Of a stretch of DNA of 64,000 bases, positions 1 to 64,000 are shown one piece after another. Position numbers and translations under genes: made by a program. Numbering within the stretch: the stretch's first letter is position 1; each line of letters begins with the position of its first letter. The notes beneath the pieces are model-generated. The model worked only from the letters and a program-made list of their open reading frames with translations. It was not told the DNA's origin and made no database searches. Source of the DNA: Amoebidium appalachense (lineage: Eukaryota > Protista > Ichthyosporea); the NCBI GenBank assembly GCA_963693365.1, contig CAVNZM010000003.1, positions 10,136,101 to 10,200,100 of the forward strand. Reading direction: 5' to 3'.

Positions 1-2004
<2,004 letters not shown>

Positions 2005-3317: not shown

Positions 3318-3403
3318 ATACAAGTAGGTCTGTGCGCCGGCGCCAAAACATAACGAAACAGTTATTGATGTTGGGTTGTGTGGTTGTTACCTCCCTCTCC
3401 CCC

Positions 3404-3447
<44 letters not shown>

Positions 3448-3607
3448 GCCTCACGCTCCTCCCCCCCCCCCCCCCCCCCCCCCCCCCGCCTCACGCTTCC
3501 TCCCCCCCCCCCCGGCCCCCCCCCCCCCCCCCCCCTCCCCCCCCCCCCCCCAAATCCTGCAGTTGCTGGATCTGCCAAATGTTATGACCCTTTTCCCTTT
3601 CATTTAA

Positions 3608-3639
<32 letters not shown>

Positions 3640-4043
3640 TTTCTTGCCACACTGTGTTATCAGTCTAGGGCCGGGAGAGATTGCCATTGCCGAAGTACCA
3701 AGTTTACTTGTGGTCCTCCAAAAACATGTAGCTGAAAACCACCAAGTGCAATATATATGTTCTAAATTGCTTGCAAAAATTTTATAATATTAATATTTTT
3801 ATTATTTTGTTGTTTTACTTATTTTACAGAACTGTTTGGTAACCCGATGATATGCATGGACAGGCAATAAAACTTTCCACGTGCACTGAGTGCCAGGTGG
3901 GCAAAATATTTCAATGAAGTCTGGAATTGGCACCCCCCCCGAAATGTTCCCGAACATAAAATCATCATTCTACGGTGTGTGTCAATATACCATGCTCACA
4001 AGTCAGTACTGCAATTATACTATTCTCAGTTTACTTCAAAGCA

Positions 4044-4078
<35 letters not shown>

Positions 4079-4578
4079 CCCTCTTCCCATTCCCTGCCCC
4101 CCCCCAAATTTGTTTTTATGCTTTTCATACTCAGTGACTGCAATCATGGCACCCGTGTTTTCTAGATATATTTCCTTTCATTGTGTTCAACGTCTATGTG
4201 TGTGTGTGTGTGTGTGTGCATGTTTGTGTGTGTGTGAATGTGTGTGTGTGGGCCAAGTGAAGGTTGTATGCGTTTTTTTCTTCTTAGTTGTTTTTGTATT
4301 CTATTCGATTATTACTTTGTGTGTAAATGTGGAAAAAAAAACAAATAGAAAAAATTACCAATGACCACCGCCCAGCTTGAATCACCCTAGCTCTAGTGTA
4401 AAAAAATAATCATTATCAGTCACAAACCCTTCTACTACACTCGCCCCAAATGTCATATTCACATTACTGAGTTGATTTAGCTGTGTTTTTTACTCTATTT
4501 TTTTCAACAACTGTCTGCTATTAAACAGTAAAATGTACATGTGTTTGTGTGTGTGTGTGTGTGTGTGTGCCACAGGCC

Positions 4579-4617
<39 letters not shown>

Positions 4618-6039
4618 ATATAGAATTTACCGTCTTCATCCCCGTGTCCCCCTAAACCGGTGTTAGCGGACCTTTGAGGTTTTTGTGATTGGATTGGTAG
4701 TTCTATTACATTAAAAGTTTCAAAATGTCGTTGTACCAATGATATAATACGTTGTAAAACAAATGTCGCCGAATTTCTCCAAAAAAAGTGCGTTCCATTC
4801 TGGGTTAGAAACCAAAACCGTTTTGATACGGGAATCACCTGATCTCTGCCGTCATTCAGCCCAGCGCGTTCACAGTGAATCCGAAACCGCTGGTTTTTTT
4901 CTTTTTATTTCAAAGCCCCGAGTACGTACATCCTCTCGGGCCCAACTTTAGGGCACTATATTTCAATTTTCTCATTATCAAATATATAGTTATTTTAGGC
5001 TTTTTCATTAGTATCGCAAGAATATTTAGCGATTTTGATGTCATAAAAACAACTAAGCAACGTTTCGATGGTTTTTGATGCCTCACAAAATGGCCTTTGG
5101 TCCCCTCCAAATTCCGGATTTGAGGTCCGGCACTAAAAAAGGTGCGTTCCATTCTGGGTTAGAAACGAAAACCGTTTTGATACGGGAATCACCTGATCTC
5201 TGCCGTCATTCAGCCCAGCGCGTTCACAGTAGACTCCGAAACCGCTGGTTTTTTTCTTTTTACTTCAAAGCCCCGAGTACGTACATCCTCTCGGGCCCAA
5301 CTTTAGGGCACTATATTTCAATTTTCTCATTATCAAATATATAGTTATTTTAGGCTTTTTCATTAGTATCGCAAGAATATTTAGCGATTTTGATGTCATA
5401 AAAACAACTAAGCAACGTTTCGATGGTTTTTGATGCCTCACAAAATGGCCTTTGGTCCCCTCCAAATTCCGGATTTGAGGTCCGGCAAACAACGCATTAT
5501 TAACAATATAAATAATGCGTTGTTTGCCGGACCTCAAATCCGGAATTTGGAGGGGACCAAAGGCCATTTTGTGAGGCATCAAAAACCATCGAAACGTTGC
5601 TTAGTTGTTTTTATGACATCAAAATCGCTAAATATTCTTGCGATACTAATGAAAAAGCCTAAAATAACTATATATTTGATAATGAGAAAATTGAAATATA
5701 GTGCCCTAAAGTTGGGCCCGAGAGGATGTACGTACTCGGGGCTTTGAAATAAAAAGAAAAAAACCAGCGGTTTCGGATTCACTGTGAACGCGCTGGGCTG
5801 AATGACGGCAGAGATCAGGTGATTCCCGTATCAAAACGGTTTTGGTTTCTAACCCAGAATGGAACGCACTTTTTTTGGAGAAATTCGGCGACATTTGTTT
5901 TACAACGTATTATATCATTGGTACAACGACATTTTGAAACTTTTAATGTAATAGAACTACCAATCCAATCACAAAAACCTCAAAGGTCCGCTAACACCGG
6001 TTTAGGGGGACACGGGGATGAAGACGATAAATTCTATAT

Positions 6040-6078
<39 letters not shown>

Positions 6079-6577
6079 GGCCTGTGGCACACACACACAC
6101 ACACACACACAAACACATGTACATTTTACTGTTTAATAGCAGACAGTTGTTGAAAAAAATAGAGTAAAAAACACAGCTAAATCAACTCAGTAATGTGAAT
6201 ATGACATTTGGGGCGAGTGTAGTAGAAGGGTTTGTGACTGATAATGATTATTTTTTTACACTAGAGCTAGGGTGATTCATGCTGGGCGGTGGTCATTGGT
6301 AATTTTTTTTATTTGTTTTTTTTCCACATTTACACACAAAGTAATAATCGAATAGAATACAAAAACAACTAAGAAGAAAAAAACGCATACAACCTTCACT
6401 TGGCCCACACACACACATTCACACACACACAAACACGCACACACACACACACACACACATAGACGTTGAACACAATGAAAGGAAATATATCTAGAAAACA
6501 CGGGTGCCATGATTGCAGTCACTGAGTATAAAAAGCATAAAAAAAAAATTTGGGGGGGCAGGGGAATGGGAAAAGGG

Positions 6578-6613
<36 letters not shown>

Positions 6614-7006
6614 TGCTTTGAAGTAAACTGAGAATAGTATAATTGCAGTACTGACTTGTGAGCATGGTATATTGACACACACCGTAGAATGATGATTTTA
6701 TGTTCGGGAACATTTCGGGGGGGTGCCAATTCCAGACTTCACTGACATATGTTGCCCACCTGGCACTCAGTGCACGTGGAAAGTTTTATTGCCTGTCCAT
6801 GCATATCATCGGGTTCCCAAACAGTTCTGTAAAATAAGTAAAACAACAAAATAATAAAAATATTATAAAAATTTTGCAAGCAATTTAGAACATATTGCAC
6901 TTGGTGGTTTTCAGCTACATGTTTTTGGAGGACCACAAGTAAACTTGGTACTTCGGCAATGGCAATCTCTCCCGGCCCTAGACTGATAACACAGTGTGGC
7001 AAGAAA

Positions 7007-7038
<32 letters not shown>

Positions 7039-7325
7039 GGGGGGGGGGGGGGAAGGGGGGGGGGGGGGGGGGGGGGGGGTAAATAAAAGGGAAAAGGGTC
7101 ATAACATTTGGCAGATCCAGCAACTGCAGGATTTGGGGGGGGGGGGGGGGGGGAGGAAGCGTGAGGCGGGGGGCCAGGGGGGGGGGGGGGGGAAGCGTGA
7201 GGCGAGGGAGGGGGGGGGGACCGGGGGGGAGGGGAGAGGGAGGTAACAACCATACAACCCAACATCAATAACTGTCTCGTTATGTTTTGGCGCCGGCGAC
7301 AGCCGGCACACAGACCTACTTGTAT
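3318..7325. repeat. ~4.0-kb inverted repeat (foldback palindrome), 9-nt loop at 5502-5510
   Basis: 3318-5501 is the reverse complement of 5511-7325 (centre ...aacgcattatt aacaatata aataatgcgtt...). Mirror ORFs appear in the track (4521..4838- vs 5819..6136+). Confidence 0.95.
4781..5487 (+). repeat. ~355-bp tandem duplication in the left palindrome arm only
   Basis: gtgcgttccattctgggttagaaac...gaggtccggca occurs at ~4781-5132 and ~5136-5487; the right arm has a single copy. Confidence 0.9.
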
Positions 7326-47720: not shown

Positions 47721-47721
<1 letters not shown>

Positions 47722-48485
47722 GTTGGAGTACACTGGTACTCCCGGCTAGCAATGTCTGTTAGAGAAAGTTTCTGAGCAATTGAATAACTGTTTCAACACT
47801 CACTCGAGTGCATAGAGCTTTTGTTTACGGTCATATTCATATATGGTAGTTATATGTTTGAGCCAAAACTGTACCAATGACGAGCTTCACTAGCAACGTG
47901 CTAATTGTGCTCATTAATTAATATTCCCGGTTCAGATGATGTCATGTCTATATTTGCCACAGGATTCTATTCTTAGAGTGGTAGTGTGCTTTATTCCCGG
48001 ATATTCTCAGAATATTTTTAGTTGTGTGAAGCAAGATTTACGTTTAACTGCAATTGGTGTGTTAAACACGTTTATTTGTGTGCTTTAGTGCAAGTTAACT
48101 AGCCACTCAACGTGCACAGTTAACTTTTATATCTTTAACGACTTGTTTTCATTGTGCTCTCTTTTCGGCCATGCTGTACATGGCCCACCACCAGGGTGCA
48201 CACGAGGCCACCATGAGGTGGCCAACGACTATATAAAGCAGTGCCTCCCATGTCACAAACATGGGAAGCAGAACGTTTGATTTACACTTTTCTACTGTCG
48301 TTTCCAGTGCACAAAACACATAGACTAGTTACCCATCATACACGACACTATGTCTGACAACTTACAGTTGCAGCAACTAGTCCAACTACTGGAGCAGAGG
48401 TTGGCCTCACAAGATGCAATCATTTCTGACTTACAGAAGGAACAACGTGCACTAGAACTAGCTTCTATGAACACAATGTCCAACA
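47721..48485 (+). repeat. 5' LTR (765 bp)
   Basis: TG...CA ends with 7-bp inverted termini; TATA-like ctatataaag ~48229; matches 52833-53597. Confidence 0.96.
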
Positions 48486-51400
48486 GGGTTATGGGCCCCT
48501 CACGTAATGATTCCATCAAGTTCAAGGTCGACATCCCTCTCTTCACTGGCATTGATAATGATTCAGGCACGGACTACCACACATGGGCCGAAACCATGTA
48601 TGTCCAGCTTTCTGGTGCTGGTCTTCTCCACACCATCGCGCCCAGTACGGAGCACCCGGCTACCCGTGAACAGGTCGACACTGCCCGTTCCTACCTGTGG
48701 CAAGCACTCTCGATTGACGTGCGTTGTATCCTAGGGTTAACACGCACCACCACACCTGCGGAGATATGGTCGGCCCTATCTGCCCACTACCTGGAGCAAT
48801 CTGAGGCCAATCAGTACGACCTTATCGGGCTGTACATGAATTCTACGCCTGAACCTACGGACACCGCGACGAAATACGCCATGAAACTCCGCGGCTACGT
48901 GCGGCGCCTGGCCGATTACGGCACACAAATTGGTGATGCTCAAGTGCTGACCAAGCTCACCAACGACCTCGGCAAGGTGCCTTACTACGAAATGCCTGTA
49001 ATTGCCTACAAGATGACACCCAAGCCTACCGTGACGGGCCTCCTCCAACAGCTACGGGCATATGAGACCAGCCACCCACGTGCACGTGTGACTACCAGCT
49101 CCGGGCCGGCCGCCTTCACCACACGGGCTCCTCAACCTGTCATCTGCCACGGCTGCGGCAAACCAGGCCACATCAAGTCTCAGTGCCCCAACGGCAACGG
49201 CCAACACAGCAACTCTGGCAACAACCGTGCCAGCACCTACCCCAAGGGTTCCTGCGTCAACCACCCACTGTCTACCAGTCACACTACCGCCATGTGCAAG
49301 GGGGGCAACCGTGCCAACGGCCGCAAACCTAAGGGTGGTCCCCTCCTGCCTGGGTCCTGCATCAACCACCCTGCCTCTACTACCCACACTACGGCACAGT
49401 GCAAGGGGGGGCTGCCGCTCCCCGGGCTTTCCTCATGTCTAGCAACGACTGTGGCACCAACAAGGTGCTCCTCGACTCTGGAGCCACTGACCATGTGTGC
49501 CCCCGGCCCGATGTGTTCATCAACATGCGTGCGGCGCCTTACTCCACGGTCCAAGTAGCCGACAAGGGTGCATGTGCAGTGCTTGGGGTGGGCGACGTGT
49601 TCTTTTCCAGCACCATCGACGGCGTTACTGCGGTGCATCAGCTGACGGATGTACTCTACGTGCCCTCCATCCCCGACACTCTCATCAGTGTGTTCACGGC
49701 AACTACCAACGGTGTTTTACCCCGCTTTGACACCCGCGGCGGCGTTAAGTTGTGCTACGGCGATCAAATTCTGGCCACCGGCTCGGCTGTCGGCACCAAG
49801 CTGTACCACATGGCGGTGTCTCTTCTGCGCGCGGACACAACCCCGGACGCCCAAACCACCACTGCTCCGCGTATCCTCAAGGTTACTGCCGACCTCAACA
49901 CGTGGCACTACCGTCTGGGCCATGCTGGCATTGACGCTGTACGCTCGGTCATCAAGTCTGCAGGCCTGTTGGTGGGTGGCGGTGCCAAGTCTCCGGGTGT
50001 GTGTGAGCCCTGTGCCCTCGGCAAAGCCCACCGTGTTGCCTTCTCCGAATCAACTAGCCAAGCTCCCCGGGTCCTCGCCAAGGTTCACAGCGACATCAGC
50101 GGCCCCTTCCCTCCCGCGATCGGTGGTGCTCAGTACTTGGCGACGTTCCACGACGAATTCACCGGCCACACCACGGCCGTGCCCCTCGTCAAGAAGTCGG
50201 ACACACTGGCTGCATATGTGACGTACCACAAGGCGGCGGTTACCCAACACGGTGTTCCCATGCAGGTGTTTCAGTCCGACGGGGGGGCGAGTACATGGGC
50301 ACGGCCTTCGGGGACTACAACCGTGAGCATGGCATTCGCCATCAGATCACTACCACCGGCTCTCCTCAACAGAATGGGACTGCCGAACGACTGAACCGGA
50401 CCCTCCTCGACATGGTTCGGGCACTCCTGCAGCAGTCCGGCCTTCCGGTGGGATTCTGGGCCGAGGCAGCTGTGACCGCGGCTTTTATACGCAACATGCT
50501 CCCGTCGCGAGCCACCGGCAGCCAATCGTCTCCCGCTCTGCTGTGGACCGGCATTCCTCCCGACTACAGCCGGCTCCGTGTCTGGGGCTCTCCCTGCTAC
50601 GTCCATCAACAGGATACACCGAAACTGGCGCCTCGTGCCGTCAAGGGCGTCTTCGTGGGCTACCCTCCTAACATCAAGGGCTACAAGGTCTGGATTCCAG
50701 CAGCACACAAGATGACCGTCAGCCGTGACGTGCAGTTCGACGAGGCTGCTATTCTGCACCCCCTCCGTGATGTCCCATCTGATTGGTCGACCGCACCGGC
50801 AATTCATCATTTTTTGGAGTCATCTGATTCGTCAAATCAGCCAGCCAATCACATCGTCCGGAATGATCAGCAATCTGATTCGTCTCGTCTGTCAGCCAAT
50901 GGGACAGCGCCGAGTGATCAATTGGACATTCCGATCCTGCCCGAGCCTGCACATCGGCTCCCCCGGACGACCCGTAGTGGCGCTGTGTACAACGACCAAC
51001 GTCGAGGCCCGACTGCCAACGTGGCTGCTGCTACGGCCCCCCTTGCCCCCCAGGCTACGGCTCCTGCATCAACACCCATCAAGGCTTCCACCATTGTTGT
51101 CCCCAAGACTGTCCGGGCTGCACTCAAGAGTCCCCAGCGTCTGAAATGGGAGGAGGCTGCACACCGTGAGCTCAAGGCCCTGGAAGACAACGGCACCTTC
51201 ACCCTTGTGCCCCGTCCAGAGGATGGCTCCACTGTCATTCCGGTCGGCTGGGTCTTTACGGTCAAGCAGGACAACGTCGGCAACGTCACTGCTTTCAAGG
51301 CCCGGCTTGTGGCCCGGGGCAACTACCAGCAGCCTGGCCAGGACTATTTCGTCACCGAGTCACCTGTGGCTGCGCTGGCTACCATCCGGCTGGTTTTGGC

Positions 51401-52646
51401 TACCTCCGTGGCCCAAGGTCTGCCTCTGCGCCACATCGACGTCAACACAGCATTCCTCAACGGCACCGTCAACGAGACCATCTACATTGAGCAGCCCCCT
51501 GGCTTCGTCAACCCCTCGGCCCCCCATGCTGTCGGCTTGCTCCACAAGGCGCTCTACGGCCTAAAACAGGCACCGCGCCAGTGGTATGAGGCCCTCCGTG
51601 ACCATCTCCTCGACCAAGGCTTCATTGTGAGTGCTGCTGACCCGTGCCTGTTCATCAAGAATGCCGGGACCCCAACATTTATTGCCCTTGCTGCCTACGT
51701 GGATGACTTCACCGTGACGGCCGCCACTGATGCGCTCATCGACGATTTTTTCACCAAGCTGGATGCTCGTTTCTCTGCCAAGGACCTGGGTCGTCCTACC
51801 CTGCTCATCGGGCACACTCTTACCTGGCTGGAGGACGGGTCTCTGCGTCTGGGCCATCGTCAACACATCATCGACTTGGCTGCCCGTTTTCGTCTCACCC
51901 ACATGTCCGGCACCAAGACCCCCATCGTCCCGGGCCAGGCCAGTGAAAGCAACAAGACCCCAGCCTACAGCAAGAAGGAGGACTATGCCAGCCTGGTCGG
52001 TGCCCTGCTGTGGATTGCGCGTACCACCCGCCCCGACATTTCCCAGGCTCTGGGAGTCCTTACTCGACACATTCATGCGCCCACCGTCACCCACTGGACT
52101 ATGGCTACCAGAGTTGTAAGCTACCTGCTGGCCACCATCGACCTGGGTATTGTCTACCGTCCCGGCCCCCCCAACCTTGTTGGCTACTCCGACTCCGACT
52201 ACGCCGAGGACCGCGACACCCGGCGCTCCACCACGGGCTATGTCTTCTTCATAAACTCCTCCCCTGTGTCCTGGGTGTCTCGGCTCCAGTCCATCACCAC
52301 CCACAGCTCCACTGAGGCTGAATTTGTGGCCATGTCTGCTGCTACGAACGAGGCCCTATGGCTCAACTATGTGATGGACGACCTGGGCCTTAATCCTATC
52401 AATGAGCCCACCCCGGTGCCCATCCATGGGGACAATGAGTCTGCCCGGGCCCTGCTGGACACCCTGGGGGTTAAGCCCAAGACCAAGCACATCGACGTCC
52501 GCTACTGCTCCGTCAAGGAACATCACCTGCTGGGCAACATCACTGTGGTCCCGGTGGCTTCTGCTGACAACAAGGCCGACATGTTCACCAAGGCCCTGTC
52601 TGCCTCTTTCTTCACCAAGGCCGTGGGGATGCTCAACATGTGCTGA
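48350..52646 (+). CDS. Copia gag-pol polyprotein, broken by two single-base frameshifts in G7 runs (49405-49411, 50281-50287)
   Basis: Gag CHGCGKPGHIKSQC; protease LLDSGATDH; integrase WHYRLGH..CEPC, HSDISGP, QSDGG(G)EY, NGTAERLNRTL; RT FKARLVARG, LYGLKQAPR, YVDD; RNase H YSDSDYA..SSTEAEF..DN..KHIDVRY..ADMFTK. Confidence 0.93.
48487..48498 (+). other. Primer binding site GGTTATGGGCCC (half-tRNA-iMet type)
   Basis: Directly after the 5' LTR; same motif as the PBS of Drosophila copia-type elements. Confidence 0.8.
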
Positions 52647-52819
52647 GCACCCGTCATCAACCAACTGCGCCCTCATACTTCAGGGGGGGGGAGAGAGTTG
52701 CATCCGACTGTGCAACTACGTGTACCATACTAAAATTGAGTAGGGGAATCTTTATTGTCTGTATTTTGTGCACCTGAAGCACTCGAGCTCAGTTGCATTA
52801 ATTCATACCACAATTATCC

Positions 52820-52832
52820 AATTGAGTAGGGG
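52820..52832 (+). other. Polypurine tract
   Basis: aattgagtagggg abuts the 3' LTR. Confidence 0.75.
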
Positions 52833-53597
52833 TGTTGGAGTACACTGGTACTCCCGGCTAGCAATGTCTGTTAGAGAAAGTTTCTGAGCAATTGAATAAC
52901 TGTTTCAACACTCACTCGAGTGCATAGAGCTTTTGTTTACGGTCATATTCATATATGGTAGTTATATGTTTGAGCCAAAACTGTACCAATGACGAGCTTC
53001 ACTAGCAACGTGCTAATTGTGCTCATTAATTAATATTCCCGGTTCAGATGATGTCATGTCTATATTTGCCACAGGATTCTATTCTTAGAGTGGTAGTGTG
53101 CTTTATTCCCGGATATTCTCAGAATATTTTTAGTTGTGTGAAGCAAGATTTACGTTTAACTGCAATTGGTGTGTTAAACACGTTTATTTGTGTGCTTTAG
53201 TGCAAGTTAACTAGCCACTCAACGTGCACAGTTAACTTTTATATCTTTAACGACTTGTTTTCATTGTGCTCTCTTTTCGGCCATGCTGTACATGGCCCAC
53301 CACCAGGGTGCACACGAGGCCACCATGAGGTGGCCAACGACTATATAAAGCAGTGCCTCCCATGTCACAAACATGGGAAGCAGAACGTTTGATTTACACT
53401 TTTCTACTGTCGTTTCCAGTGCACAAAACACATAGACTAGTTACCCATCATACACGACACTATGTCTGACAACTTACAGTTGCAGCAACTAGTCCAACTA
53501 CTGGAGCAGAGGTTGGCCTCACAAGATGCAATCATTTCTGACTTACAGAAGGAACAACGTGCACTAGAACTAGCTTCTATGAACACAATGTCCAACA
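52833..53597 (+). repeat. 3' LTR (765 bp)
   Basis: No difference from the 5' LTR found by eye; preceded by the PPT. Confidence 0.96.
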
Positions 53598-53749: not shown

Positions 53750-54907
53750 ATGCAGGGAAGGTCGCGCGGCTGGCAGACACTCTTTGGGCCCGTTCGCCCA
53801 TTTGCGAACCGAAATATGAAAGACACAGGCCAACACTACCGGGGAGTATATTGGAATGGTAAAGAGGGCAAATGGTATGCAAAGATAGGAAGCCACATTT
53901 ATGTCGGTTCCTACGAAAACAGTCGCACGGCTGCACGGCAGCGGGATTTGGTCATTGATTTGTTGGTGCAGAAGGGGGTGTTGGCTCACCGATACCTAGA
54001 TTCTAAAAATGTTAGCCTCGGGAATTTGCGTAAATTCAAACCGACAGCCGATGATTTGGATTGGGCAGAGGAGTGGTGGGCCAAGAAAACAACAAAGGCG
54101 AAATCGTCAGTGTACAAGGGCGTAGCCTACAAAATTAGCAATATCCAAGAGCCGTGGCGCGCGTCTTATCGGAAGGATGGTGTTTCTCATTACGGCGGGA
54201 ACTACGCGACAGAAGTGGAAGCGGCACTTGCAAGGGACAAGGTGATACGTACTCTGGAGATTTCAAAGCGAGAGAAACTAACTTAAGGCGCCTAAACTTC
54301 TATCTCCCTGGCGATTATTTGAGTGTCGAGGAAGCAGAGCAGGCTGGGTGCATAGGGGTGTCCTTCCACACAGCCAGATCCCATTTACCCAACCCTTACG
54401 AAGTGCGCCGAGGGGATAGAACTGTTTCGGGTACCCAACCGAAATCCCTCGGCTGCTTTGCCTCGGTCACCGAAGGAGGCCGGGCATACGATCGAGACGC
54501 ACTGGCTGCATGGGCGCAGCAAAACGGACCACGCGGCCCCCTGCCCCCAACCAACTTCTGTCCGACCGAATACGGACACAAACTCCCTCAGCTGCCGCCA
54601 CCAATCCACAACCCCACGATAGCAACCAAAGACGAAGGCTCCGGTGGTGTTACGCATACCGCTGCCGACGAACATTCCCAACCACATCATCCCCTATGCG
54701 ACCCAAGAAATTGGCGGTGATGCCAACAATTCACCTCAAAGCAACAGGCAGGCTAAATCGACTCCACAGAGCAACAGCAACGACGGCCCGTTGGCTGTTG
54801 GTGACGTCACTGACCGGAATAATGACGACGTGGCGGGACAACACAACTCCCACTCGGATGCAAACGTTAACTTTCAGGCAGGGGTGGGGCAGAAAAGAAT
54901 GGTTTAA
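53750..54907 (+). pseudogene. Protein with three AP2/ERF DNA-binding domains; frameshift at ~54270 and possibly ~54690
   Basis: AP2-like repeats YRGVYW..GKWYAKI..YVGSY..TAARQRD; SSVYKGV..PWRASY..GNYATEVEAALARD..RLNF; IGVSF..SLGCFASVTEGGRAYD..PTNF. May be the last exon of an upstream gene (tatgcag| at 53754). Confidence 0.75.
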
Positions 54908-54992
54908 GTGTGGTAGGTGGTCAGATACGTATACAGAGGTGGGCCCCGGGGACACATAAGGTACTCTTATAGGAGAAAAGAAGGTACTACAA

Positions 54993-55063
54993 TAAGGGGC
55001 GCGGCACCCCGTGAATGGTGACGTCACAAGTGACGTCACATTCACGCGGTCCCGCACCCCTTA
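54993..55063. other. Imperfect ~35-bp hairpin with two self-palindromic GTGACGTCAC arms (T/Y-shaped)
   Basis: taaggggcgcggcaccccgtgaatg GTGACGTCAC aa GTGACGTCAC attcacgcggtcccgcacccctta: 3 mismatches and 1 bulge. Confidence 0.85.
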
Positions 55064-55326
55064 GGATATGGGATATGTGAATATGAGATATGTGATATCT
55101 GTGTACACATATCGCGATATGGGATATATGTGATATGGGTGGATATATGTACATGAGCACGTGCACACACTGTGTGTGTGTGTGTGTAAAACACGTGCAG
55201 AGCACGTGGTTTTAACTAAATGATTAAACAATTAAAGAGAGAGAGGGCGTGTCACGTGTACGCGTACGTGTACGCGTACATGTGGTGCGTACACAAGTGC
55301 GGATCAAAGGAATGCGAAGGTTTGCG

Positions 55327-55503
55327 CAAGGCGTCCAATGGGTTCGAATTCTGAATTCCATGTACAAGGCGTCCAATGGTATTACGGATGCGCAGGGTGG
55401 CCAATGATAATTCGGCTCAAAAAAGCAAATTGCCGCACAAGGCGTCCAATCGGAATCTAGACTGGCACATGTGGTTCTAGGTGTCCAATGAGGGCACAGG
55501 GAA
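55327..55503 (+). promoter_or_regulatory. Cluster of GGCGTCCAAT (CCAAT-box) motifs upstream of the 305-aa ORF
   Basis: CAAGGCGTCCAAT at 55327, 55365 and 55438; GGTGTCCAAT at 55480; GGCCAAT at 55399. Confidence 0.55.
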
Positions 55504-55668
55504 CAGGGATTACGGTCCTCATTGGCCAGAAACGCACCCTGCATCCTACCACCGTGTACATAAACAGCCGCACACAGGCAACATCTCACCAACCAAACAT
55601 GAGCCAGACAGTCACAGTCGAGGTGCACACCACAGTAACGTTCACCACACCCCCCAAGCAACAGCAAA

Positions 55669-56586
55669 ATGGTCAAGCCAACCCTGCTGCGTCAAATGAC
55701 TGGTCTGTCCACCGTCAAAAGGACCAGCATCGCCGCGGCAAGCAGTGGCAAAGAAAACATCAACAGCAGCGTTGAGGGGGCCAAGATGGTGCTGTACAAG
55801 GAGGTGTTCCTCAATGGTGTGGGCAAGGCCACCATGGGTGCACCCTGGGTCATGAACGACGTGCTGGTGGTGCAGCTGTACAACCTGCCCAACATCAACA
55901 TCAACGGGCAGATGTTGATTGAACTGGGCACCCACCTGTCTGCCTACGACAAAACCACAATCAAGATCAAGTCCCAGCGCCACCCTGAGCCCTTTGAGGT
56001 GGCCTACGCCGTTGGCCTGTGGCCCTACGTGTGCAGCATGGCCAAGGACGTGCTGTGGATGCACAAGGACCACGAGATGCTCAAGGATGTCGATCTGGAC
56101 ACCGTTGCCGTCAAGACCAGCAGCAGCCTGTGGTCCAGACACAGCCCCAACCTGTACGAGGTGCTGGGTGCCAACCCCGTCAGCAAGGCGGACATGGAGG
56201 GGGCACTGGGCGACACCTACTTCAACGTGACGGTGGAGCTCCCCAACCCCACTGGCCGCAACCCCTGCCTCTTCAAGCTGGGCAACAACGCGGCCTCTGT
56301 GGATGAGTTTGTGGAGTTTATGAACTCCCAGCGTGCCAAGTGCCGTGAGGTTACTGCATGGGTGTCTGCTGCCGCCACCAGTGTCATCTACAACAAGAAA
56401 AGCAACACTGTGCGCACCAAGCTCGTTGCCCGCAAGGTTCAGGTGTTTGATTTAGACGGTCTGATGGAGTTGGTCAGTGATGGTGCGGGTAGTGAGGGGG
56501 AGGGGGGTGATGTAGACATGGGGCAGGCTAAGCGTGCTGGCACGCCCATGCCTGGGGAGGACAAGGCCAAAATGCTCAGGATGTAA
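55669..56586 (+). CDS. 305-aa viral-element protein, possibly a T7 gp2.5/NCLDV-type ssDNA-binding protein
   Basis: Intact intronless ORF with strong codon bias. C-terminal beta-rich VTAWV..SVIYN..VRTKLVARKVQV followed by an acidic/Gly tail. The ORF is secure; the function is tentative. Confidence 0.6.
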   Translation: MVKPTLLRQMTGLSTVKRTSIAAASSGKENINSSVEGAKMVLYKEVFLNGVGKATMGAPWVMNDVLVVQLYNLPNININGQMLIELGTHLSAYDKTTIKIKSQRHPEPFEVAYAVGLWPYVCSMAKDVLWMHKDHEMLKDVDLDTVAVKTSSSLWSRHSPNLYEVLGANPVSKADMEGALGDTYFNVTVELPNPTGRNPCLFKLGNNAASVDEFVEFMNSQRAKCREVTAWVSAAATSVIYNKKSNTVRTKLVARKVQVFDLDGLMELVSDGAGSEGEGGDVDMGQAKRAGTPMPGEDKAKMLRM

Positions 56587-56967
56587 TAGGCACATGTCTG
56601 TTTATTCAGAATCTCTTTACCTCCGGGTGATGCCACGAAATAAACTTCTTCCCAAAAAAAAAAAAAACACTGTGTACCGCCGCGACTGAGTTGACTTAGT
56701 ACGTACATGAGTGAGAGAGTAAATGATTGCGCCAACTTGAACTTTGCGTAACTTATGAGCCAATGAAATCAAGCGAAATTGAATGTTACGTAATATTACG
56801 TATACACTTTTTTCTCCCATGTGCACTCTATCAGCTGTCGGCTCTCTCAGTCTCGTCTCGTTTTCGTTCGTTTTTTTGTGAAGAAAAAACTTAGAAAAAA
56901 CTCTTAAACATTTTCACAATCATCTCTTTTCGCACTTTTAGGTAGCAACACTTAGAAGTTACACCAC

Positions 56968-57056
<89 letters not shown>

Positions 57057-57142
57057 ACGCATGCATGCACACGTAGAAGGGTGTGGTAGGGTGACTGTTG
57101 GTTGCCTTTGGTTTTTTATTTTTATTTTTGTTTTTATTTTTA

Positions 57143-57207
57143 TTTTTCGTTAAAAATTTCATAGATTTTCGTTAGAGCCTTTTTGGCACACACACACACA
57201 CACACAT

Positions 57208-57252
<45 letters not shown>

Positions 57253-57664
57253 TGCAGGCACACGTGTGCAATGCACCATAGTAGTCTTCAACTTGTGCTC
57301 TGTTTTTTTTCCTTGGATCTTTTTGCCGTCGGTTTTCTTTGTAGAAAAAAAAAAACGTGAAAATAAAGGGCTCCGCCCAATGCATCCACAGATCACAAAG
57401 TTTTTTATTTTTTATCGTTAAAATCTTCATAGATTTTTGTTAGAGTGTTTTGGCACACACACAAGCACACACATGCACACACATGCACACACACGCACAC
57501 GTGCAGGCACACGTGTGCAATGCACCATGGTAGTCTTCAGCTTGTGCTCTGTTTTTTTTTCTTGGAACTTTCGTAAAAAAACAAAAGTTTATTTTTGCCG
57601 TCGGTTCAATTCTTTGTATAAAAGAAGAAGAAAAAAAAACGTGAAAATAAAGGGCACTGCCCAC
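57143..57664 (+). repeat. Degenerate tandem duplication, ~270-bp unit x2
   Basis: cgttaaaa..catagattt..gtgcaggcacacgtgtgcaatgcacca..aaacgtgaaaataaagggc occurs twice. Confidence 0.85.
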
Positions 57665-57788
57665 TATGTATACACAAATCACAACGGTGTCTATGTTAAT
57701 GAGACCATGGCATGCTCAAACTTTAAGGTACTTTACTAAAAAAATTAAAAATGGCAAAGTTTAGGGCACTGCCCCCCTATCCTGTGCA

Positions 57789-58890
57789 CTAGCCCATGTA
57801 GCCTTGGTTCACAGTCTTGAGGGGCGGTGCCGCTGAGGTACGGAGTAAGTTAGGCACCCGGGTCCTACCGTAGAAGTAGGGGGCACCGACCGTCATGTTG
57901 TTGTTGTTGTTGTTGTAGGGGGTGTTGCTGTTGGTGCTGCTGCTGCGGAGGGGGGCAAGGTTTTCCTTCTCCTTGGGGGCAATGTCGATGAACGTGCCGG
58001 ACTTGCGCCGTGATGGTGCCTCCTTGTGGATGCTTTTCTTGATCAGCCCTGCAAACACAATCTTCTCACCTGCACCATACATACGCTCATTCGCAACCCC
58101 ACGCAGCAATGCCTGCATGTCATGGAGGACATCCATGGCGACCCCTTTGAAGAGGGGCGTGGACTTCAACTTGGCTGCCTTTGCAGTGGCCACCATGGTC
58201 TGCAGGAAGCCAGCAACAACACGAGCCAGGTGGCGGGCCACCTCTCTCTCCCTGTGGGGAGTGAGTCCTGCCTTGCACATCCCGACGATGGGCTCCCAGT
58301 TGGCCTCTATCTCCTCCAGGTACCTCTGCATGTAGTCGCCAACCAACTGAGGGTCTGTCTCTACCTTGTGCCTAGTGGATCTCTCATGCTCTGTGAACTG
58401 CGGTAGGAGGATGTCTACCACAGCAGCAGCCACCCCCTTGAGCATGACGCGTTGCGGCACGCGAGTGTTGCCAAAAGCGACTTGCCGTGCAGTTCAGCCA
58501 GTTCTGCAGGCTCAGAGATGGTACCACGCACCAGCATCTCAGGGAGCCATGCCCCATCAAAGTCATCTAGACCCGTGAAGCGTTTTTGGAAGTAGACTTC
58601 GCCCCCTGCATCATAGCCAGCGAAGAAGTCACCTTTCTTGGCGGAGAGGAGGAAGGACGCTGCGTTGGCGGAAACACTGGGCTGTGCTGCATACCCCTCA
58701 GCAAGCGTGCGGTAGGATGCGTAGAAGGGTTGAAGCAGAACAGTGTCAAGATCCAAATCTTTGAGATGCCAGGAGAAGGTGCGGCCAGGAGGAGGCCTGC
58801 GGGCTGGCACAGAATGATGGCTGCTGCGGCGGCAGCAAGAACATCAGCATCGTCTAGAGCTAGAGGGGGCAGGAAGGAGAGGCCTGCCAT
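57789..58890 (-). pseudogene. Hypothetical ~365-aa protein split by two frameshifts
   Basis: Three overlapping minus ORFs (58567..58899, 58415..58810, 57789..58460) with coding-like composition; aaaccATG start at 58890. Confidence 0.5.
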
Positions 58891-59173
58891 GGTTTCCAAA
58901 GTTCGCTGCTTGCAAAAAGACCAGGCTAGAGTGGCTTAGAATATAAGAAAAAGTGTTTGAAGAAGGAACGTTTGCAGGTGGCTTTTGTGCCCTCCATTGC
59001 ACACACGCTGCCGTGCTCCAAAATTCGGTGACTCCTGCTGCACTAGGCGTCCAATAGGAGCACAGGGGAGTCGCCAATGGAATGCAAGTCAGCAAAGGCT
59101 ACAGCATTTTGATTGACCGCTCGCACCGCCCGCCAACGGTTCCCTGCACACTTACCATAAACGGAAGGTTCCA

Positions 59174-59761
59174 TTAGAGGATGCCGCGTCCCGATACGTT
59201 TGGCGACCTGGCTGGCGGCCAGACGTAGGGCTTACCGTCCACAACTTGAAGCACCTGCGTACCGCCCCCTCCGCCCCCTCTCCACTCGTAGCTGTTTCCC
59301 TTGCGTGTGCCTGCAGCATTCAAGTTATAAGGACCATATCCCAACGCATTCTGGGTGTTGTGCAGCAGGTAGTTGCCCGCATCCCTCGTGCCATTCCTCA
59401 GGGTCTTCCACGCACTGAATGCACCATTCTGCGCGCCCTGCCCTGCACGCTGCGTGCCCTGCACGGCAGCATCGCCTGTGGCACGCGCAAACCCCTTGAT
59501 CCCCTTGAACACCGTCCCCCCCGCCTCCTCCGCCTTCCCTGCAGTGTAGGTGGCAGCATCCGCAGCCTTGTTGTACATGTAGTTGCCCACCCCCCTCGCA
59601 ATGTCCCCCTTGTGCTTCCACGCATAGTACCCCCCTGCCCCCAAGGCTGCACCGCCCGCCAGGGCCCCCACCCACTTGGCTACCTCTGACGCCTTGTTTG
59701 GCTGGTTCTGCACGTAGATGACACGCGTGTTGCCGCTCCTGCCTCGCGATGACACCCCCAT
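59174..59761 (-). CDS. 195-aa Gly/Ala-rich protein with one hydrophobic segment (putative virion/membrane protein)
   Basis: caccATGG start; VAKWVGALAGGAALGAGGYYAW followed by amphipathic Ala/Gly helices. Confidence 0.6.
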   Translation of the reverse strand: MGVSSRGRSGNTRVIYVQNQPNKASEVAKWVGALAGGAALGAGGYYAWKHKGDIARGVGNYMYNKAADAATYTAGKAEEAGGTVFKGIKGFARATGDAAVQGTQRAGQGAQNGAFSAWKTLRNGTRDAGNYLLHNTQNALGYGPYNLNAAGTRKGNSYEWRGGGGGGTQVLQVVDGKPYVWPPARSPNVSGRGIL

Positions 59762-59858
59762 GGTGATGTGACTTGCACGCCTACTTATGCATGCACAATA
59801 TTTTTATTTTTGTTCGCCAAGTGCCCGCTTGGCCTTGGCCTACTACGTACACTAACGG

Positions 59859-60122
59859 TCAGTGCATGGGCCTGCCATGTGCACGCCTGAGTGCCGCAAA
59901 GGTGGGTCTGGGGCGAGCAAATCGGCCTGCTGCAGACCCTGCCATGGTGCTTGGTTTGAGGAAGAAGGGGTGGCGGGTACCGTGCGGGCATATCTTGTCC
60001 GCAACGGCCCGTGCCATCGCCTGCTGGCCATAGTAGCTAAAGTCTGTGTGCGTGGCGTTTGACGTGCGGGCGGTGAGGGGCTGAAACTGGTCGTTCAGCA
60101 CGATTTGGTAGGTGTTGGCCAT
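59859..60122 (-). CDS. ~87-aa small protein with Arg-rich C-terminus
   Basis: caccATGGCC start; packed between its neighbours; tail RFARPRPTFAALRRAHGR. Confidence 0.45.
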   Translation of the reverse strand: MANTYQIVLNDQFQPLTARTSNATHTDFSYYGQQAMARAVADKICPHGTRHPFFLKPSTMAGSAAGRFARPRPTFAALRRAHGRPMH

Positions 60123-60189
60123 GGTGTGCACGCACTACATACACTCTAACACACATTTTATGATCTAGCCCCAACTAGTAGATCTTAAG

Positions 60190-60736
60190 CTAGAAATCCA
60201 GCCCCAACACGCCCCCTGCCTTTGAGCTGCGCGGGTATGCCTCAGGCACCCACGACACTACACGTGGTCCCCCAACAGGCTGGGGCTCCGTGAACAAAAG
60301 CAGGCACACGCCCTCGGGCGATGGCCTCTTGAACCCCTCAAACTTGATCCTGCCCCGCAGGATGCGTATCTCTGCGGCGTACCTGAACGCCAGGTCATGG
60401 AACCAGCGTGCCTCCGTGCGTGCGGGCACGAGGAGCACGCTCTTTCTACCCTTGGATATGTACATCCGTATGGCCTTGCGTAAAAAGGGGGGAATCTCAG
60501 AGAAGGGAGGGTTGACATAGTTTATTTTCTCGCTGGACCACACGCCGTCGTCTGTGAGTGCGCAAGGGTCCTCCCCCCTCCCGCCAGGTGATGGGGCAGG
60601 GGTCGTTGAGTGCGCCAAACTCCTTTTCGAGTGCACCCAGCACCCATGCAGGCGTCTGCACCTTGTCAGTGTCCACTCCTGCCTTCCTCTTGTCCTGTGT
60701 AGCCTTGTACACCCCGCAGCAGCTGCCCAACCCCAT
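60190..60736 (-). CDS. Phage Dam-family (T1/HP1-type) DNA N6-adenine methyltransferase; one frameshift in a G-run at ~60575
   Basis: Joined frames give DKVQTPAWVLGALEKEFGALNDPCP..CALTDDGVW..YVNPPFSEIPPFLRKA..SVLLVPARTEARWF..AAEIRILRGRIKF. Confidence 0.85.
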
Positions 60737-60969
60737 GATGATCCGCACAGCTGGTCCCGCACCTGTGGGCCGCCAAAATTTCGCGGGCCACGGGTCGGGC
60801 CGGGCCGGGCCGGGTCGCGGCAGGGCCGGCTCGGGTCGGGTCGACCCGGAGAAGTCCGGGTCGGGTCAGGGCCTGCGGCCCGCACATGGGCGATTAGCCT
60901 GATATGGCAGTTACCCATTTGGGCTAGTTTTGAAGGCTGCCGGTTGGTGGGGCGTCTTTGTTTTTTTTT

Positions 60970-62297
60970 TCAAGACGGGCGTGCACGCCTTGCGCTGCGC
61001 CTCAGCACCACTTGCTCCTCTTGGTGTTCAAACGCCAATTTTTTGAGTTCCCGTGCCTTGCGTTTTTCTTTGTCTTTCTGCGTCTGTGCACGCGTGCCCT
61101 TGTGGCGTGCAAGTTCACGCCCTTGAAACGCCAGCTCCTCACGGGCTTTTTCCTTGGCGGTCTCCTTGCGGGCAGCGCGCATCCCGCTGCTGGGCGGTAC
61201 AGACACGCTGGTAGGTGGCACCTTCTTTAGCATGGTGTCTGGCCAAGCGTAGCGTAGGCCTGGCGTGTGTTTCCTCATCCCCCCTGTGGCTGCGTTGCGT
61301 AGCGCCCACCCACTTGCATCCTTGTAGGCGAGCGTGTAGACGTCCTTGGACCAGTTTCTGCCCTCCTTTTCAAACGGTCCCTTTGGCTTTTTGAGTGCAC
61401 GCACGTGCACGCCCTCCGTGTGCCCCATCTTGGCACGTAGCTCACCCTTTTGTTTCCTGTTCTCCAGCCACGTGTTGATGCTGTTCCACCGTTCGGCCCT
61501 CTGGGTCATCTTGTTGGGCTCTCTACCGATCGAACCATGGTACGTGTCGTTGTAATCCTCCAACACATTTTCCAACCCTTCCCCCGTCCACTTGCCCGTG
61601 TCGTTGGCCTCCATGTACTTGCTCAATCCTTGCTTTAGGGTGCGATGGAACCGTTCTACCATGGCCACGTTGCGTGGTTTTCGGCCTGGCTTTTGCGGGA
61701 GGATGGTGATGTCGTGTTGATCGTAGTACTTTTTCATTGTATTGCTGAGGAACTCCGTGCCCTTGTCCGTAAAGATCTGCTTTACCTCTGTAGGTTGTAG
61801 GTTTTCCTCCCCCTCGTTGCTTTCGTCCTTCATCTCCCTGATGGTCTTTAACGCTTTGTGCACTGCCCTCTGCATCTCCCCGGCGGCCCGTTGCTGATGG
61901 TGAGGTGCTCGTTTTTCCCGCTCCCTGAGCTCTTTGTTTTTATGGGCACGACCGTCGCCTGCCTTGTGTTCATGTCAATCATGCTCAATCCCCCCTTGTA
62001 CCACCTGTTTGCCTTTGAGTAACGCGGCATAAAAAACAGATCGGCAGCCACGCTGTTTGGCCGTGCTGTGGTGGTGAGGTAGTCCTTCCTCTCGATACGA
62101 TGGGGGGCGAGCACCTCCTTGAGGGATTCCTGCTGCCCGGTGTTTCTTCTGGACAGGTAGGCACGCACGGCCGGTTGCCCTACCCTCTTGTCTTTTGCTT
62201 TTGCACGCCGCCACAGTGCCTGCACGGTGGGGGGGAGCTTGAAGGTGGCGTAGGTCTCCTCAATCACCTGCTCAATGCCCTTGTCTCTGGCCACCAT
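60970..62297 (-). CDS. Polinton/Maverick-type retroviral-like (rve) integrase; one frameshift at ~61880-61940
   Basis: N-term VQALWRRAK..VRAYLSR; D1 VAADLFFMP; D2 IFTDKGTEF; E VAMVERFHRTLK; YNDTYHGSIGREP; C-term HVRALKK..FEKEG.NWSKDVY. Confidence 0.88.
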
Positions 62298-62318
62298 GGT
62301 GGTTTCCTGTGCTCGCTA

Positions 62319-62894
62319 CTAGTCGGTTGACACTTTCTCCTCGGGCACCCTTCTTGGCCTGCGGGTGTTGGTGGTCTTTCTGGTCGTTTTTTTGGCCTTG
62401 GGGGCAGGGGGTGCCTGGAGCTTGATGGGGTGGTCGGGGATGAGGGGGTGTGGGTGCAATGGGGTGACGTCCTTTTCCGTGTCCGTGCTGCCTGTGCTTG
62501 AGGCCATACCCTCATCATCGTCGAGTAGGGTGAGCACGGCGGATTGTAGCTCTTGTGGTGGGGGAGGGGGTGACTGGGGTGGGGAGGGGAAGGCAAAGAG
62601 GGGCTCAAAGGGGGGTGTAGGGGAGAGGAGGTCGTGGGGGAAAGGGGTGTCTGGCCGGGGGGAGGGGGTGGGGTGCTCGTGCAGTAGCACCTCCCTGATG
62701 GTGCTTGCATTCTCTTTCAACCACTCTGTAAAGGGTCTCCACTCTAGCCCCTTTTCTGTGCAAACCAACATCTCCCCTTCCTTGGGCGGGTGTTTTGGGA
62801 ACACGAGGTCGTAGGCTTCAGTAGATGGGTGGGCTAGCACACCCACGTACCCGCCTGCACGCGTGAGCAGATTGAGCCTGGTTACGTTAGACAT
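62319..62894 (-). CDS. 191-aa protein: fibre-like N-terminal motif plus Pro/acidic/basic disordered tail
   Basis: GGYVGVLAHP..YDLVFP..EGEMLVCTEKGLEW resembles the GYVG..Y.L.LP..GQVL..G.L.W motif of phage/virus fibre proteins. Confidence 0.5.
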   Translation of the reverse strand: MSNVTRLNLLTRAGGYVGVLAHPSTEAYDLVFPKHPPKEGEMLVCTEKGLEWRPFTEWLKENASTIREVLLHEHPTPSPRPDTPFPHDLLSPTPPFEPLFAFPSPPQSPPPPPQELQSAVLTLLDDDEGMASSTGSTDTEKDVTPLHPHPLIPDHPIKLQAPPAPKAKKTTRKTTNTRRPRRVPEEKVSTD

Positions 62895-62945
62895 CTTGGT
62901 CTTGTTTTTCCCTTTTATTATGGTTGCACATTTTTTCGTACGGAG

Positions 62946-63705
62946 ATGGTAGTAGGCAACTCAGTTGTGAGAATGATTGTCGACCTTGCACGTATATATT
63001 TTACCACCTGCTGTGCCATCATGTGTGTTGCACTCGTGGTGGCGTCCTACGGCACAGCCGTACTCATACCGGAACTTGCCAAACGTAATGTTTTGGCTCA
63101 TCATCCTACCCCTCACAGGTGTGGTCATGTGCCAGGCACAATGGGTGGCGTATGCCTGGCTCGACGTGGACACCCACCCTGACGTGGCCGGGCACTGTGT
63201 GATGTGGGCACCCTACTGGCTGGGCTCGTGGCTGTATGTGGCCTCCCCCCTCGCCTACATGCTGGCAGCAGCGTGCTGGGCCCGATCCATGCGTGTGACG
63301 ACCACGTTGTTCTTCCCACGGGCCGTGGCGTACATGGTGTGTGCCTCCCTCCTCCCCCTAAGTGCCCTCTATGGCATGACGTGCGTGTTTGAACCGTCGG
63401 TGTTTGGCTACGTGTTTCTTGTGTTGAGGGGCGTGCTGGCGTGTGCCACCCTCGTCTGTGCACGGTACATGCTCTCCCTGTCCGTGCCCGTGCTCACCAG
63501 GAACATTGTGCTGTGCGTGTGGGTGCATGCAGGCCTTGCACTGGCAGGCATTGTGTTTGACGAGCTCCACTGGAACTTGTGGGAGTTTGGGTTTTTGGAG
63601 AACGGGTTTCTGACCACGTTGGGATACACACTGCTCGCCTGCTGCCTGCTTGCCCTCTGGTACCTCATACTCTACTGCATGGACGTGCTGGGCCCCTACA
63701 CGTAG
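62946..63705 (+). CDS. Seven-transmembrane (GPCR-like) membrane protein, ~250 aa; one frameshift near 63065-63085
   Basis: ORF 62946..63182 supplies TM1 and ORF 62977..63705 supplies six further hydrophobic segments. Confidence 0.6.
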
Positions 63706-63707
63706 TT

Positions 63708-64000
63708 TTAGGGCATGGTCCATTTTGGCCCGTTGTCCCAGTCGCCCACATCCACGACGTTGTGGTCGGTTCCGTACTTACCCTGGTTGTTCTTCCAGGC
63801 CTCGAGCTCGGCGGCGTAGTTGTCGTAGTCGGTGGCGGCCCGGCGTGCCTTCCTCTTGCCCATCTTGCCAATGCCCGTGCCTAGCTTACCTCCGTACCTC
63901 TGTGCGAGTTTGCATGCCCCCTTGCCCACGGCAGACACGGCATCACCGACCACAGGTATGACCCCCATCAAGTCCATCACACTCTCCACAATGTCCAACG
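63708..64000 (-). CDS. C-terminus of a protein with an amphipathic GVIPVVGDAVSAVGKG motif (5' truncated by the window)
   Basis: Frame is open to the window edge; stop lies 2 nt from the convergent 7TM stop. Confidence 0.55.
   Translation of the reverse strand, partial: LDIVESVMDLMGVIPVVGDAVSAVGKGACKLAQRYGGKLGTGIGKMGKRKARRAATDYDNYAAELEAWKNNQGKYGTDHNVVDVGDWDNGPKWTMP

What the first reader, a model, noticed from the sequence alone, without database searches (positions are those of the whole stretch)
54993..64000. Endogenous Polinton/adintovirus-like element with an unusual cargo: hairpin end, SSB, Dam MTase, integrase, 7TM
Seen: an intron-riddled genome switches to tightly packed intronless ORFs including a DDE integrase with Polinton-type flanking motifs. 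Known: rve integrases without RT, in such cassettes, mark Polintons/adintoviruses/virophage-like elements. Inferred: this is the left ~9 kb of an integrated dsDNA virus. The combination of T-shaped end, putative T7-like SSB, phage MTase and 7TM gene is not the canonical Maverick gene set and may be an undescribed lineage.
Basis: partly seen in the sequence, partly recalled or inferred. Interest (0 to 1): 0.88.

Follow-up and report, generated by a model that had tools for sequence, protein, structure and literature searches.

The report
Left end of endogenous Polinton-like virus
This is the first 9 kb of a repeated, intron-free, gene-dense element with a Polinton-type integrase and a DNA adenine methyltransferase, likely one of the integrated mid-sized DNA viruses already reported from single-celled relatives of animals, so probably a new copy of a known kind rather than a new system.

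Summary
The element is real. Contig depth steps up at 54,984-55,090 in 4 of 4 public runs, and other insertions join different flanks at 54,995/54,996. It carries a Dam methyltransferase (Pfam E 1.6e-11) and an rve DDE integrase without RT or zinc finger, closer to a Polinton-type integrase than to the Copia next door. Three genes are frameshifted at four places, where sister copies differ in length. Corrections: the end hairpin is a simple stem, not T-shaped; the membrane protein has 5-6 helices, not 7; the SSB label is a lead only (language-model neighbours Pox_I3, DUF5871, DUF2738 at 0.76-0.80; direct profile tests negative). Capsid, ATPase, polymerase, far-end repeat and target duplication lie outside the window and were untestable. 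The cargo has precedent: Sarre et al. 2024 describe about 30-kb Dam-carrying 'adintoviruses' in Amoebidium, and PgVV-group PLVs carry DUF2738/5871 proteins. An Amoebidium-like host is inferred, not shown. Verdict: new member of a known kind, with divergent proteins.

The parts
54995..55520 (.). Left terminal region, candidate terminal inverted repeat; begins 5'-AG
   Evidence: Depth step in 4 of 4 runs; X20 loose ends before 54,995/54,996; depth 3.1x (X3), 2.1x (X4) and 0.8x (X1) that of ORF1. The far-end copy is outside the window.
54993..55064 (.). Terminal imperfect hairpin (simple stem). Its core is two copies of a 10-nt palindrome holding a CRE/ATF-type site (label recalled) at 55,018 and 55,030. 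The first two bases may be flank DNA.
55330..55525 (+). Five CCAAT boxes plus one reversed, upstream of ORF1; likely a host-polymerase promoter (inferred)
   Evidence: (family D7)
55669..56586 (+). ORF1, 305 aa (second ATG at 55,786), intact, acidic Gly-rich tail; possible giant-virus-type ssDNA-binding protein (lead only)
   Evidence: GC3 0.79; no homologue; Atlas leads; negative profile tests
56590..57780 (.). Non-coding spacer between convergent genes: A-runs, (CA)n tracts, imperfect direct repeats; differs between subfamilies
   Evidence: an X1 contig diverges right after the ORF1 stop
57789..58890 (-). ORF2, about 365 codons, broken by two frameshifts (near 58,815 and 58,447); no family match
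59174..59761 (-). ORF3, 195 aa, basic, 34% Gly+Ala, amphipathic; resembles membrane-active or core virion peptides by eye only
   Evidence: no family hit
59859..60122 (-). ORF4, 87 aa, basic, unknown
60190..60736 (-). Phage-type Dam N6-adenine methyltransferase, one frameshift near 60,573
   Evidence: (403 phage records; best listed 33.6% to Yersinia phage PY100 dam)
60740..60900 (.). GC-rich, strongly folding spacer between integrase and Dam
   Evidence: 72-nt windows at 60,745-60,817 among the best of 5,328
60970..62297 (-). Polinton-type rve (DDE) integrase, about 440 codons, one frameshift near 61,880; no N-terminal Cys, no chromodomain hit
62319..62894 (-). ORF7, 191 aa, Pro-rich with a basic C-terminus, unknown
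63088..63705 (+). Membrane protein, 205 aa, 5-6 predicted helices, no family
63708..64000 (-). C-terminal 96 aa of a gene running off the window; amphipathic, Gly/Ala-rich

Best explanation
This is the left 9 kb of a multi-copy, intronless element with an rve integrase and a Dam methyltransferase, likely an integrated Polinton-class (adintovirus-like) dsDNA virus of roughly 15-30 kb in a protist genome, with capsid and polymerase genes predicted to lie beyond the window. SHOWN: a sharp family end at 54,995/54,996; many diverged copies; a DDE integrase without RT or zinc finger; a Dam gene with its NPPF motif; a terminal hairpin; a CCAAT cluster; three genes frameshifted in this copy as assembled. 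INFERRED from Polinton biology: the integrase would insert the linear genome through its terminal repeats. A protein-primed PolB would copy it by strand displacement, and ORF1 would coat the displaced single strand if it is an SSB. The terminal hairpin would fold in that strand and serve as origin or end protection, while the same repeat would double as the promoter of ORF1. Dam would mark the viral DNA, for example against restriction by co-infecting giant viruses. ORF3, the last ORF and the membrane protein would be virion or entry accessories. This copy is probably a decaying, silenced provirus, unless the frameshifts are assembly errors. The host is probably an Amoebidium-like ichthyosporean, in which such elements have been described.
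For: Depth step in 4 of 4 runs and alternative flanks in X20. 20 of 24 listed runs, under 4 organism labels, hold the stretch or part of it. Contigs at 85-100% identity show several subfamilies. Integrase: 45% identity to P0001, E 3e-54. The profile of both matches P0002 (Pfam rve above cut-off plus a weak Chromo hit) at 99.1% probability over 250 columns, including N- and C-terminal flanks. blastp gives 31% over 176 aa to P0002 and no hit at E 10 to the window's Copia integrase; no Cys in the N-terminal 122 aa. Polinton integrases lack the N-terminal finger (PMC2836005). Dam. Amoebidium elements: compact, VLTF3, Dam, mCP, MCP, PolB, about 30 kb, 44 in the reference genome, some degenerating (PMC11244446). 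Host hint: CGC is depleted in the adjacent Copia (0 of 36 CG in the LTR; 98 against 155 expected inside, P 1e-8), as CGC/GCG-biased methylation would produce (PMC11244446 section 6).
Against: No capsid, ATPase, protease or polymerase gene in the 9 kb, among the frames scanned. No relative with genomic context was found in IMG/VR or JGI contigs. The end begins AG but lacks the vertebrate (AGT)2 or (AG)3 motif. The terminal-region depth excess is absent in X1. No contig among the 32 pieces shown (1,095 not shown) bridges this copy's own junction. P0002's Polinton label rests on its domain layout and recalled motifs; its contig was not seen, and no proper integrase tree was built. Host DNA outside the Copia shows no CGC depletion (0.95), so the host is unproven. 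The passages seen of PMC11244446 do not mention an integrase, and its gene map is a picture I could not see.
Confidence: 0.8

Rival explanations
1. A capsid-less, Polinton-derived large DNA transposon that moves by its integrase alone and carries Dam and orphan genes as passengers.
For: Only integrase and Dam are identifiable in 9 kb; many copies.
Against: Nine tightly packed genes with coding-like GC3, shared across copies in the runs laid. The gene set matches capsid-bearing elements described in PMC11244446.
Confidence: 0.1
2. A fragment of a giant-virus or Mriyavirus-like insertion, with the integrase as a passenger.
For: ORF1's named Atlas neighbours are Nucleocytoviricota clusters. T7-like SSBs occur in gamadviruses and four giant-virus families (PMC11253617).
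Against: A sharp shared end used by many copies, with alternative flanks. The word 'integrase' has 0 occurrences in the Mriyavirus paper's main text. The Atlas scores are under 0.9.
Confidence: 0.06
3. An assembly chimera or contaminant joined at about 54.99 kb, or a Ginger/LTR relic.
For: No listed contig bridges this exact junction. The window holds many homopolymer runs and a large fold-back duplication at 3.3-7.3 kb.
Against: The join falls on the family's natural end. The element and the flanking AP2 repeat are both covered in X3 and X4. No H2C2 finger, no TGTNR end and no RT inside the element.
Confidence: 0.04

Closest known systems
Amoebidium appalachense 'adintoviruses' (Sarre et al. 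2024, PMC11244446; passages, section 6 and supplementary legends seen)
   Same: Compact intron-poor multi-copy insertions with a Dam methyltransferase in an intron- and transposon-rich genome; several clades; some copies degenerating.
   Different: VLTF3, mCP, MCP and PolB could not be checked here. The passages seen do not mention an integrase, an SSB-like gene or a terminal hairpin. Identity of host and family is inferred, not shown.
Maverick/Polinton elements, class Polintoviricetes, including Adintoviridae (PMC8502044, PMC8097293, bioRxiv 2026.06.19.733378; passages seen)
   Same: rve integrase without RT or H2C2 finger; intronless ORFs; terminal region starting AG.
   Different: The integrase is divergent (27-31% to P0002) with no chromodomain hit; no vertebrate 6-bp end motif; carries Dam and orphan genes outside the eight vertebrate core genes.
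PgVV-group Polinton-like viruses (bioRxiv 2022.07.28.501842; figure legend and passages seen)
   Same: Precedent for a DUF2738/5871-domain protein, VLTF3 and a methyltransferase in a Polinton-like genome.
   Different: Their listed MTase is FkbM-type; no sequence link to this element was tested.
T7 gp2.5-like SSBs of Mriyaviruses and Nucleocytoviricota (PMC11253617; passages seen)
   Same: ORF1 has similar size, an acidic tail and language-model proximity to clusters with Pox_I3, DUF5871 and DUF2738 members (that these families are SSBs is recalled).
   Different: No significant alignment to a T7 gp2.5 profile or to a six-member DUF5871 profile; fold not obtained.
Ginger1 and Ginger2/Tdd DNA transposons (PMC2836005; passages seen)
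   Same: Integrase-type DDE enzyme without RT.
   Different: No H2C2 finger, no TGTNR terminus, nine genes rather than one.

Membership tests
Maverick/Polinton (Polintoviricetes, adintoviruses) | Retrovirus-like rve integrase, no RT, no N-terminal H2C2 finger | tested here: met
   criterion from PMC2836005
Maverick/Polinton (Polintoviricetes, adintoviruses) | Protein-primed PolB (or helicase/primase substitute) | not testable with these tools
   Not in the 9 kb scanned; no whole genome held; no related locus found
Maverick/Polinton (Polintoviricetes, adintoviruses) | Double-jelly-roll MCP, penton, A32/FtsK ATPase, adenain protease | not testable with these tools
   Not in the 9 kb scanned; the element runs off the window
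Maverick/Polinton (Polintoviricetes, adintoviruses) | Long terminal inverted repeats | tested here: inconclusive
   Sharp end; depth excess over ORF1 in 2 of 3 informative runs; second copy outside the window
Maverick/Polinton (Polintoviricetes, adintoviruses) | 6-bp target-site duplication | not testable with these tools
   Needs the right end
Maverick/Polinton (Polintoviricetes, adintoviruses) | Conserved end motif (vertebrates: (AGT)2 or (AG)3) | tested here: inconclusive
   Begins AG at 54,995 but not the 6-bp vertebrate motifs; the end is placed to within one base from two contigs of one run
Maverick/Polinton (Polintoviricetes, adintoviruses) | Intronless, closely packed ORFs | tested here: met
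Amoebidium adintoviruses (PMC11244446) | Dam methyltransferase | tested here: met
Amoebidium adintoviruses (PMC11244446) | VLTF3, mCP, MCP, PolB; about 30 kb | not testable with these tools
   Beyond the window
Amoebidium adintoviruses (PMC11244446) | Amoebidium host | tested here: inconclusive
   CGC depletion in the Copia but not in masked host DNA (0.95); no named host homologue obtained
Ginger1/Ginger2 transposons | H2C2 zinc finger and TGTNR termini | tested here: not met
   No Cys in the N-terminal 122 aa; end starts AG
LTR retrotransposon | Integrase with HHCC finger in a pol gene with RT, between LTRs | tested here: not met
   the neighbouring Copia served as positive control for the finger
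T7 gp2.5-like / giant-virus SSB (ORF1) | OB fold or significant profile match | tested here: inconclusive
   Atlas leads 0.76-0.80. Shuffles scoring as well as ORF1: 114 of 500 (T7 profile), 46 of 1,000 (DUF5871 profile), 18 of 150 (global hhalign). Models pLDDT 34-37.
AAV-like T-shaped terminal hairpin | Stem with two small side arms as the favoured fold | tested here: not met
7TM receptor or rhodopsin | Seven membrane helices or a family match | tested here: not met
   5-6 segments by hydropathy; no hit

The most novel reading that the evidence does not exclude
A deeply divergent Polinton-class virus lineage of unicellular animal relatives that has taken on a giant-virus-type replication aid. 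ORF1, placed first behind a hairpin-and-promoter terminal repeat and shared by all subfamilies seen, is an SSB of the Pox_I3/DUF5871/DUF2738 type. With the VLTF3 reported for Amoebidium elements, this would make the family a Polinton-Nucleocytoviricota mosaic whose proteins are almost absent from current databases.
Probability: 0.3. Interest if true: 0.6.

Novelty: new member of a known kind. Interest (0 to 1): 0.35.

Why it matters
Integrated Polinton-class viruses are known to be abundant in protists (PMC10120064, passages), so the element as such is expected. Its value is in detail. The passages I saw from the one paper on the likely family name no integrase, SSB or end structure. The proteins are near-orphans: ORF1 has 0 hits among 1.84 billion representatives, and the integrase has one close homologue. 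If ORF1 proved to be a giant-virus-type SSB, it would add to evidence that mid-sized integrating viruses and giant viruses exchange replication genes. A multi-copy family with sister copies in several isolates makes that testable by comparing natural copies.

Full report
Setting. The window has four parts. Bases 1-47,700 are intron-rich host DNA: simple repeats are 16.8%, and separate exons hit glycoside hydrolase 31 domains. A Copia retrotransposon with identical LTRs spans 47,721-53,597. An AP2-domain ORF at 53,750-54,286 lies in a stretch that is itself repeated. The flagged element follows and runs off the window. No whole genome is held.

The element and its end are real. 20 of 24 listed public runs, under four organism labels, hold the stretch or part of it (the best holder may be the window's own source). 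I laid four of them. Mean contig depth left of 54,984, in 54,984-55,518 and over ORF1 is 552, 13,151 and 4,297 in X3; 147, 1,012 and 484 in X4; 0, 17 and 20 in X1. X20 has no cover left of 54,984, and two of its contigs continue into other sequence before 54,995 and 54,996. The family therefore ends at 54,995 or 54,996 and is inserted at other sites too. These depths are no copy numbers, but contigs of 85-100% identity show many copies and several subfamilies. The excess depth of the first 500 bp fits a terminal repeat in X3 and X4 but not in X1. None of the 32 pieces shown bridges this copy's own junction; 1,095 were not shown.

The hairpin. 54,993-55,064 folds at -29.3 kcal/mol, z -6.0, with 0 of 200 shuffles as good. 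It is a simple stem. Forcing a T shape on the two inner palindromes costs 10.5 kcal/mol, and those arms have pair probability about 1e-7. The inner palindromes hold CRE/ATF-type sites (label recalled), and five CCAAT boxes follow at 55,335-55,485. I infer that the end doubles as the promoter for ORF1.

Genes. Nine frames cover 69% of the element's part of the window, most with GC3 of 0.66-0.80. Dam is secure: PF05869 E 1.6e-11, phrog_111 E 1.3e-20, TIGR01712 E 5e-10, 403 phage records, NPPF motif. The integrase is one gene. Its two pieces align in order with P0001 (42% and 47%), and the D-D-E triad is intact. The profile of both matches P0002, an rve protein with a weak chromodomain hit, at 99.1% over 250 columns. 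There is no Cys in the N-terminal 122 aa and no blastp hit to the Copia integrase in the same window, which does have the finger. Bao et al. state that Polinton integrases lack that finger, while Ginger1 and Ginger2 have it and end in TGTNR (PMC2836005 passages). The membrane protein has 5-6 hydrophobic segments, not 7. ORF2, 3, 4, 7 and the last ORF have no convincing family hit (best E 0.011), nor do 20 further frames. ORF3 and the last ORF are amphipathic and Gly/Ala-rich. Adintoviruses carry membrane-active and pX-like genes (PMC8502044 section 8), but the likeness is by eye only.

Broken frames. ORF2 is frameshifted near 58,815 and 58,447, Dam near 60,573, and the integrase near 61,880. 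At all four places contigs from X3, X4 and X1 differ in length from the window, in several cases at most or all of the local depth. The breaks are therefore features of this copy as assembled, from decay or long-read error, and not a recoding signal of the family.

ORF1 and the SSB idea. ORF1 is an orphan: 0 hits among 1.84 billion representatives, and none. The Atlas gives an unnamed cluster at 0.93 (47% viral), with a recognition value below the reliable range. Among named clusters, the three families shown are Pox_I3 (12% of members, score 0.80), DUF5871 (11%, 0.77) and DUF2738 (10%, 0.76). All are under 0.9. Direct tests failed: 114 of 500, 46 of 1,000 and 18 of 150 shuffles scored as well, and hhalign gave 1.3%. 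The folds were unusable. The DUF5871 profile also missed T7 gp2.5 in the PDB, so the tests are blunt. I put SSB at about even odds.

Host. Not shown. The neighbouring Copia lacks CGC: 0 of 36 CG sites in the LTR and 98 against 155 expected inside. Amoebidium methylates CGC/GCG at about 70% and other CG at about 20% (PMC11244446 section 6), which would erode CGC in this way. Masked host DNA shows no such loss (0.95), and codon usage was not controlled. The intron- and transposon-rich style also fits. I put an Amoebidium-like host at about 0.7.

What is known. [quoted passage not shown] A 2026 preprint confirms their Dam clade and found no methylation activity on expression in E. coli (10.64898/2026.05.21.726589 passages). 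Most PLVs carry MTases (10.64898/2026.06.19.733378 passages; also 10.64898/2026.10.13.758929 passages). PgVV-group PLVs carry DUF2738/5871 proteins and VLTF3 (10.1101/2022.07.28.501842 legend). T7-like SSBs occur in Mriyaviruses and four giant-virus families (PMC11253617 passages). Such insertions are common in protists (PMC10120064 passages). Polinton TIR and TSD criteria come from PMC8969392 and PMC8097293 passages; PMC12085832 only lists DUF5871 genes. My search for 'Amoebidium' with 'adintovirus' listed three works. In the passages seen none names an integrase, SSB or hairpin for these elements, but the gene map is a figure I could not see.

Verdict. It works like a Polinton-class integrating DNA virus (0.8). 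Membership is met for the integrase and the intronless layout, and untested for capsid, polymerase, far-end repeat and target duplication. It is most likely a further copy of an already reported family, with unusually divergent proteins and one open question, ORF1. Novelty: new member of a known kind; interest 0.35.

Noticed in passing
window 3318-7325: Long inverted duplication centred near 5,506 (arms 92-98% identical, about 2 kb each); a real palindrome or a fold-back assembly artefact.
   Followed up: no
window 47721-53597: Young Copia element with identical LTRs, sitting in a poly-G run. The first 44 or so gag codons lie inside the LTR, so they recur at 53,462. The pol frame shifts near 50,290.
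   Followed up: partly
window 47721-52800: CGC trinucleotides are selectively depleted in the Copia (0 of 36 CG in the LTR; 98 vs 155 expected inside), a possible footprint of CGC/GCG methylation.
   Followed up: partly
window 53750-54720: AP2-domain ORF (Pfam E 5e-6; HNH-endonuclease PHROG hits) followed by a similar-looking frame without a Pfam hit; part of a separate multi-copy repeat next to the element.
   Followed up: partly
window 465-1070: Host frame with a bacterial extracellular solute-binding domain (SBP_bac_1, E 3.6e-7) in intron-rich DNA.
   Followed up: no
window 60740-60900: GC-rich palindromic spacer between integrase and Dam that folds as strongly as the terminal hairpin and varies between copies.
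   Followed up: no
window 57800-64000: In the element's coding part CGT is over-represented (1.45) while the other three CG contexts are at 0.81-0.89; unexplained, possibly codon usage.
   Followed up: no
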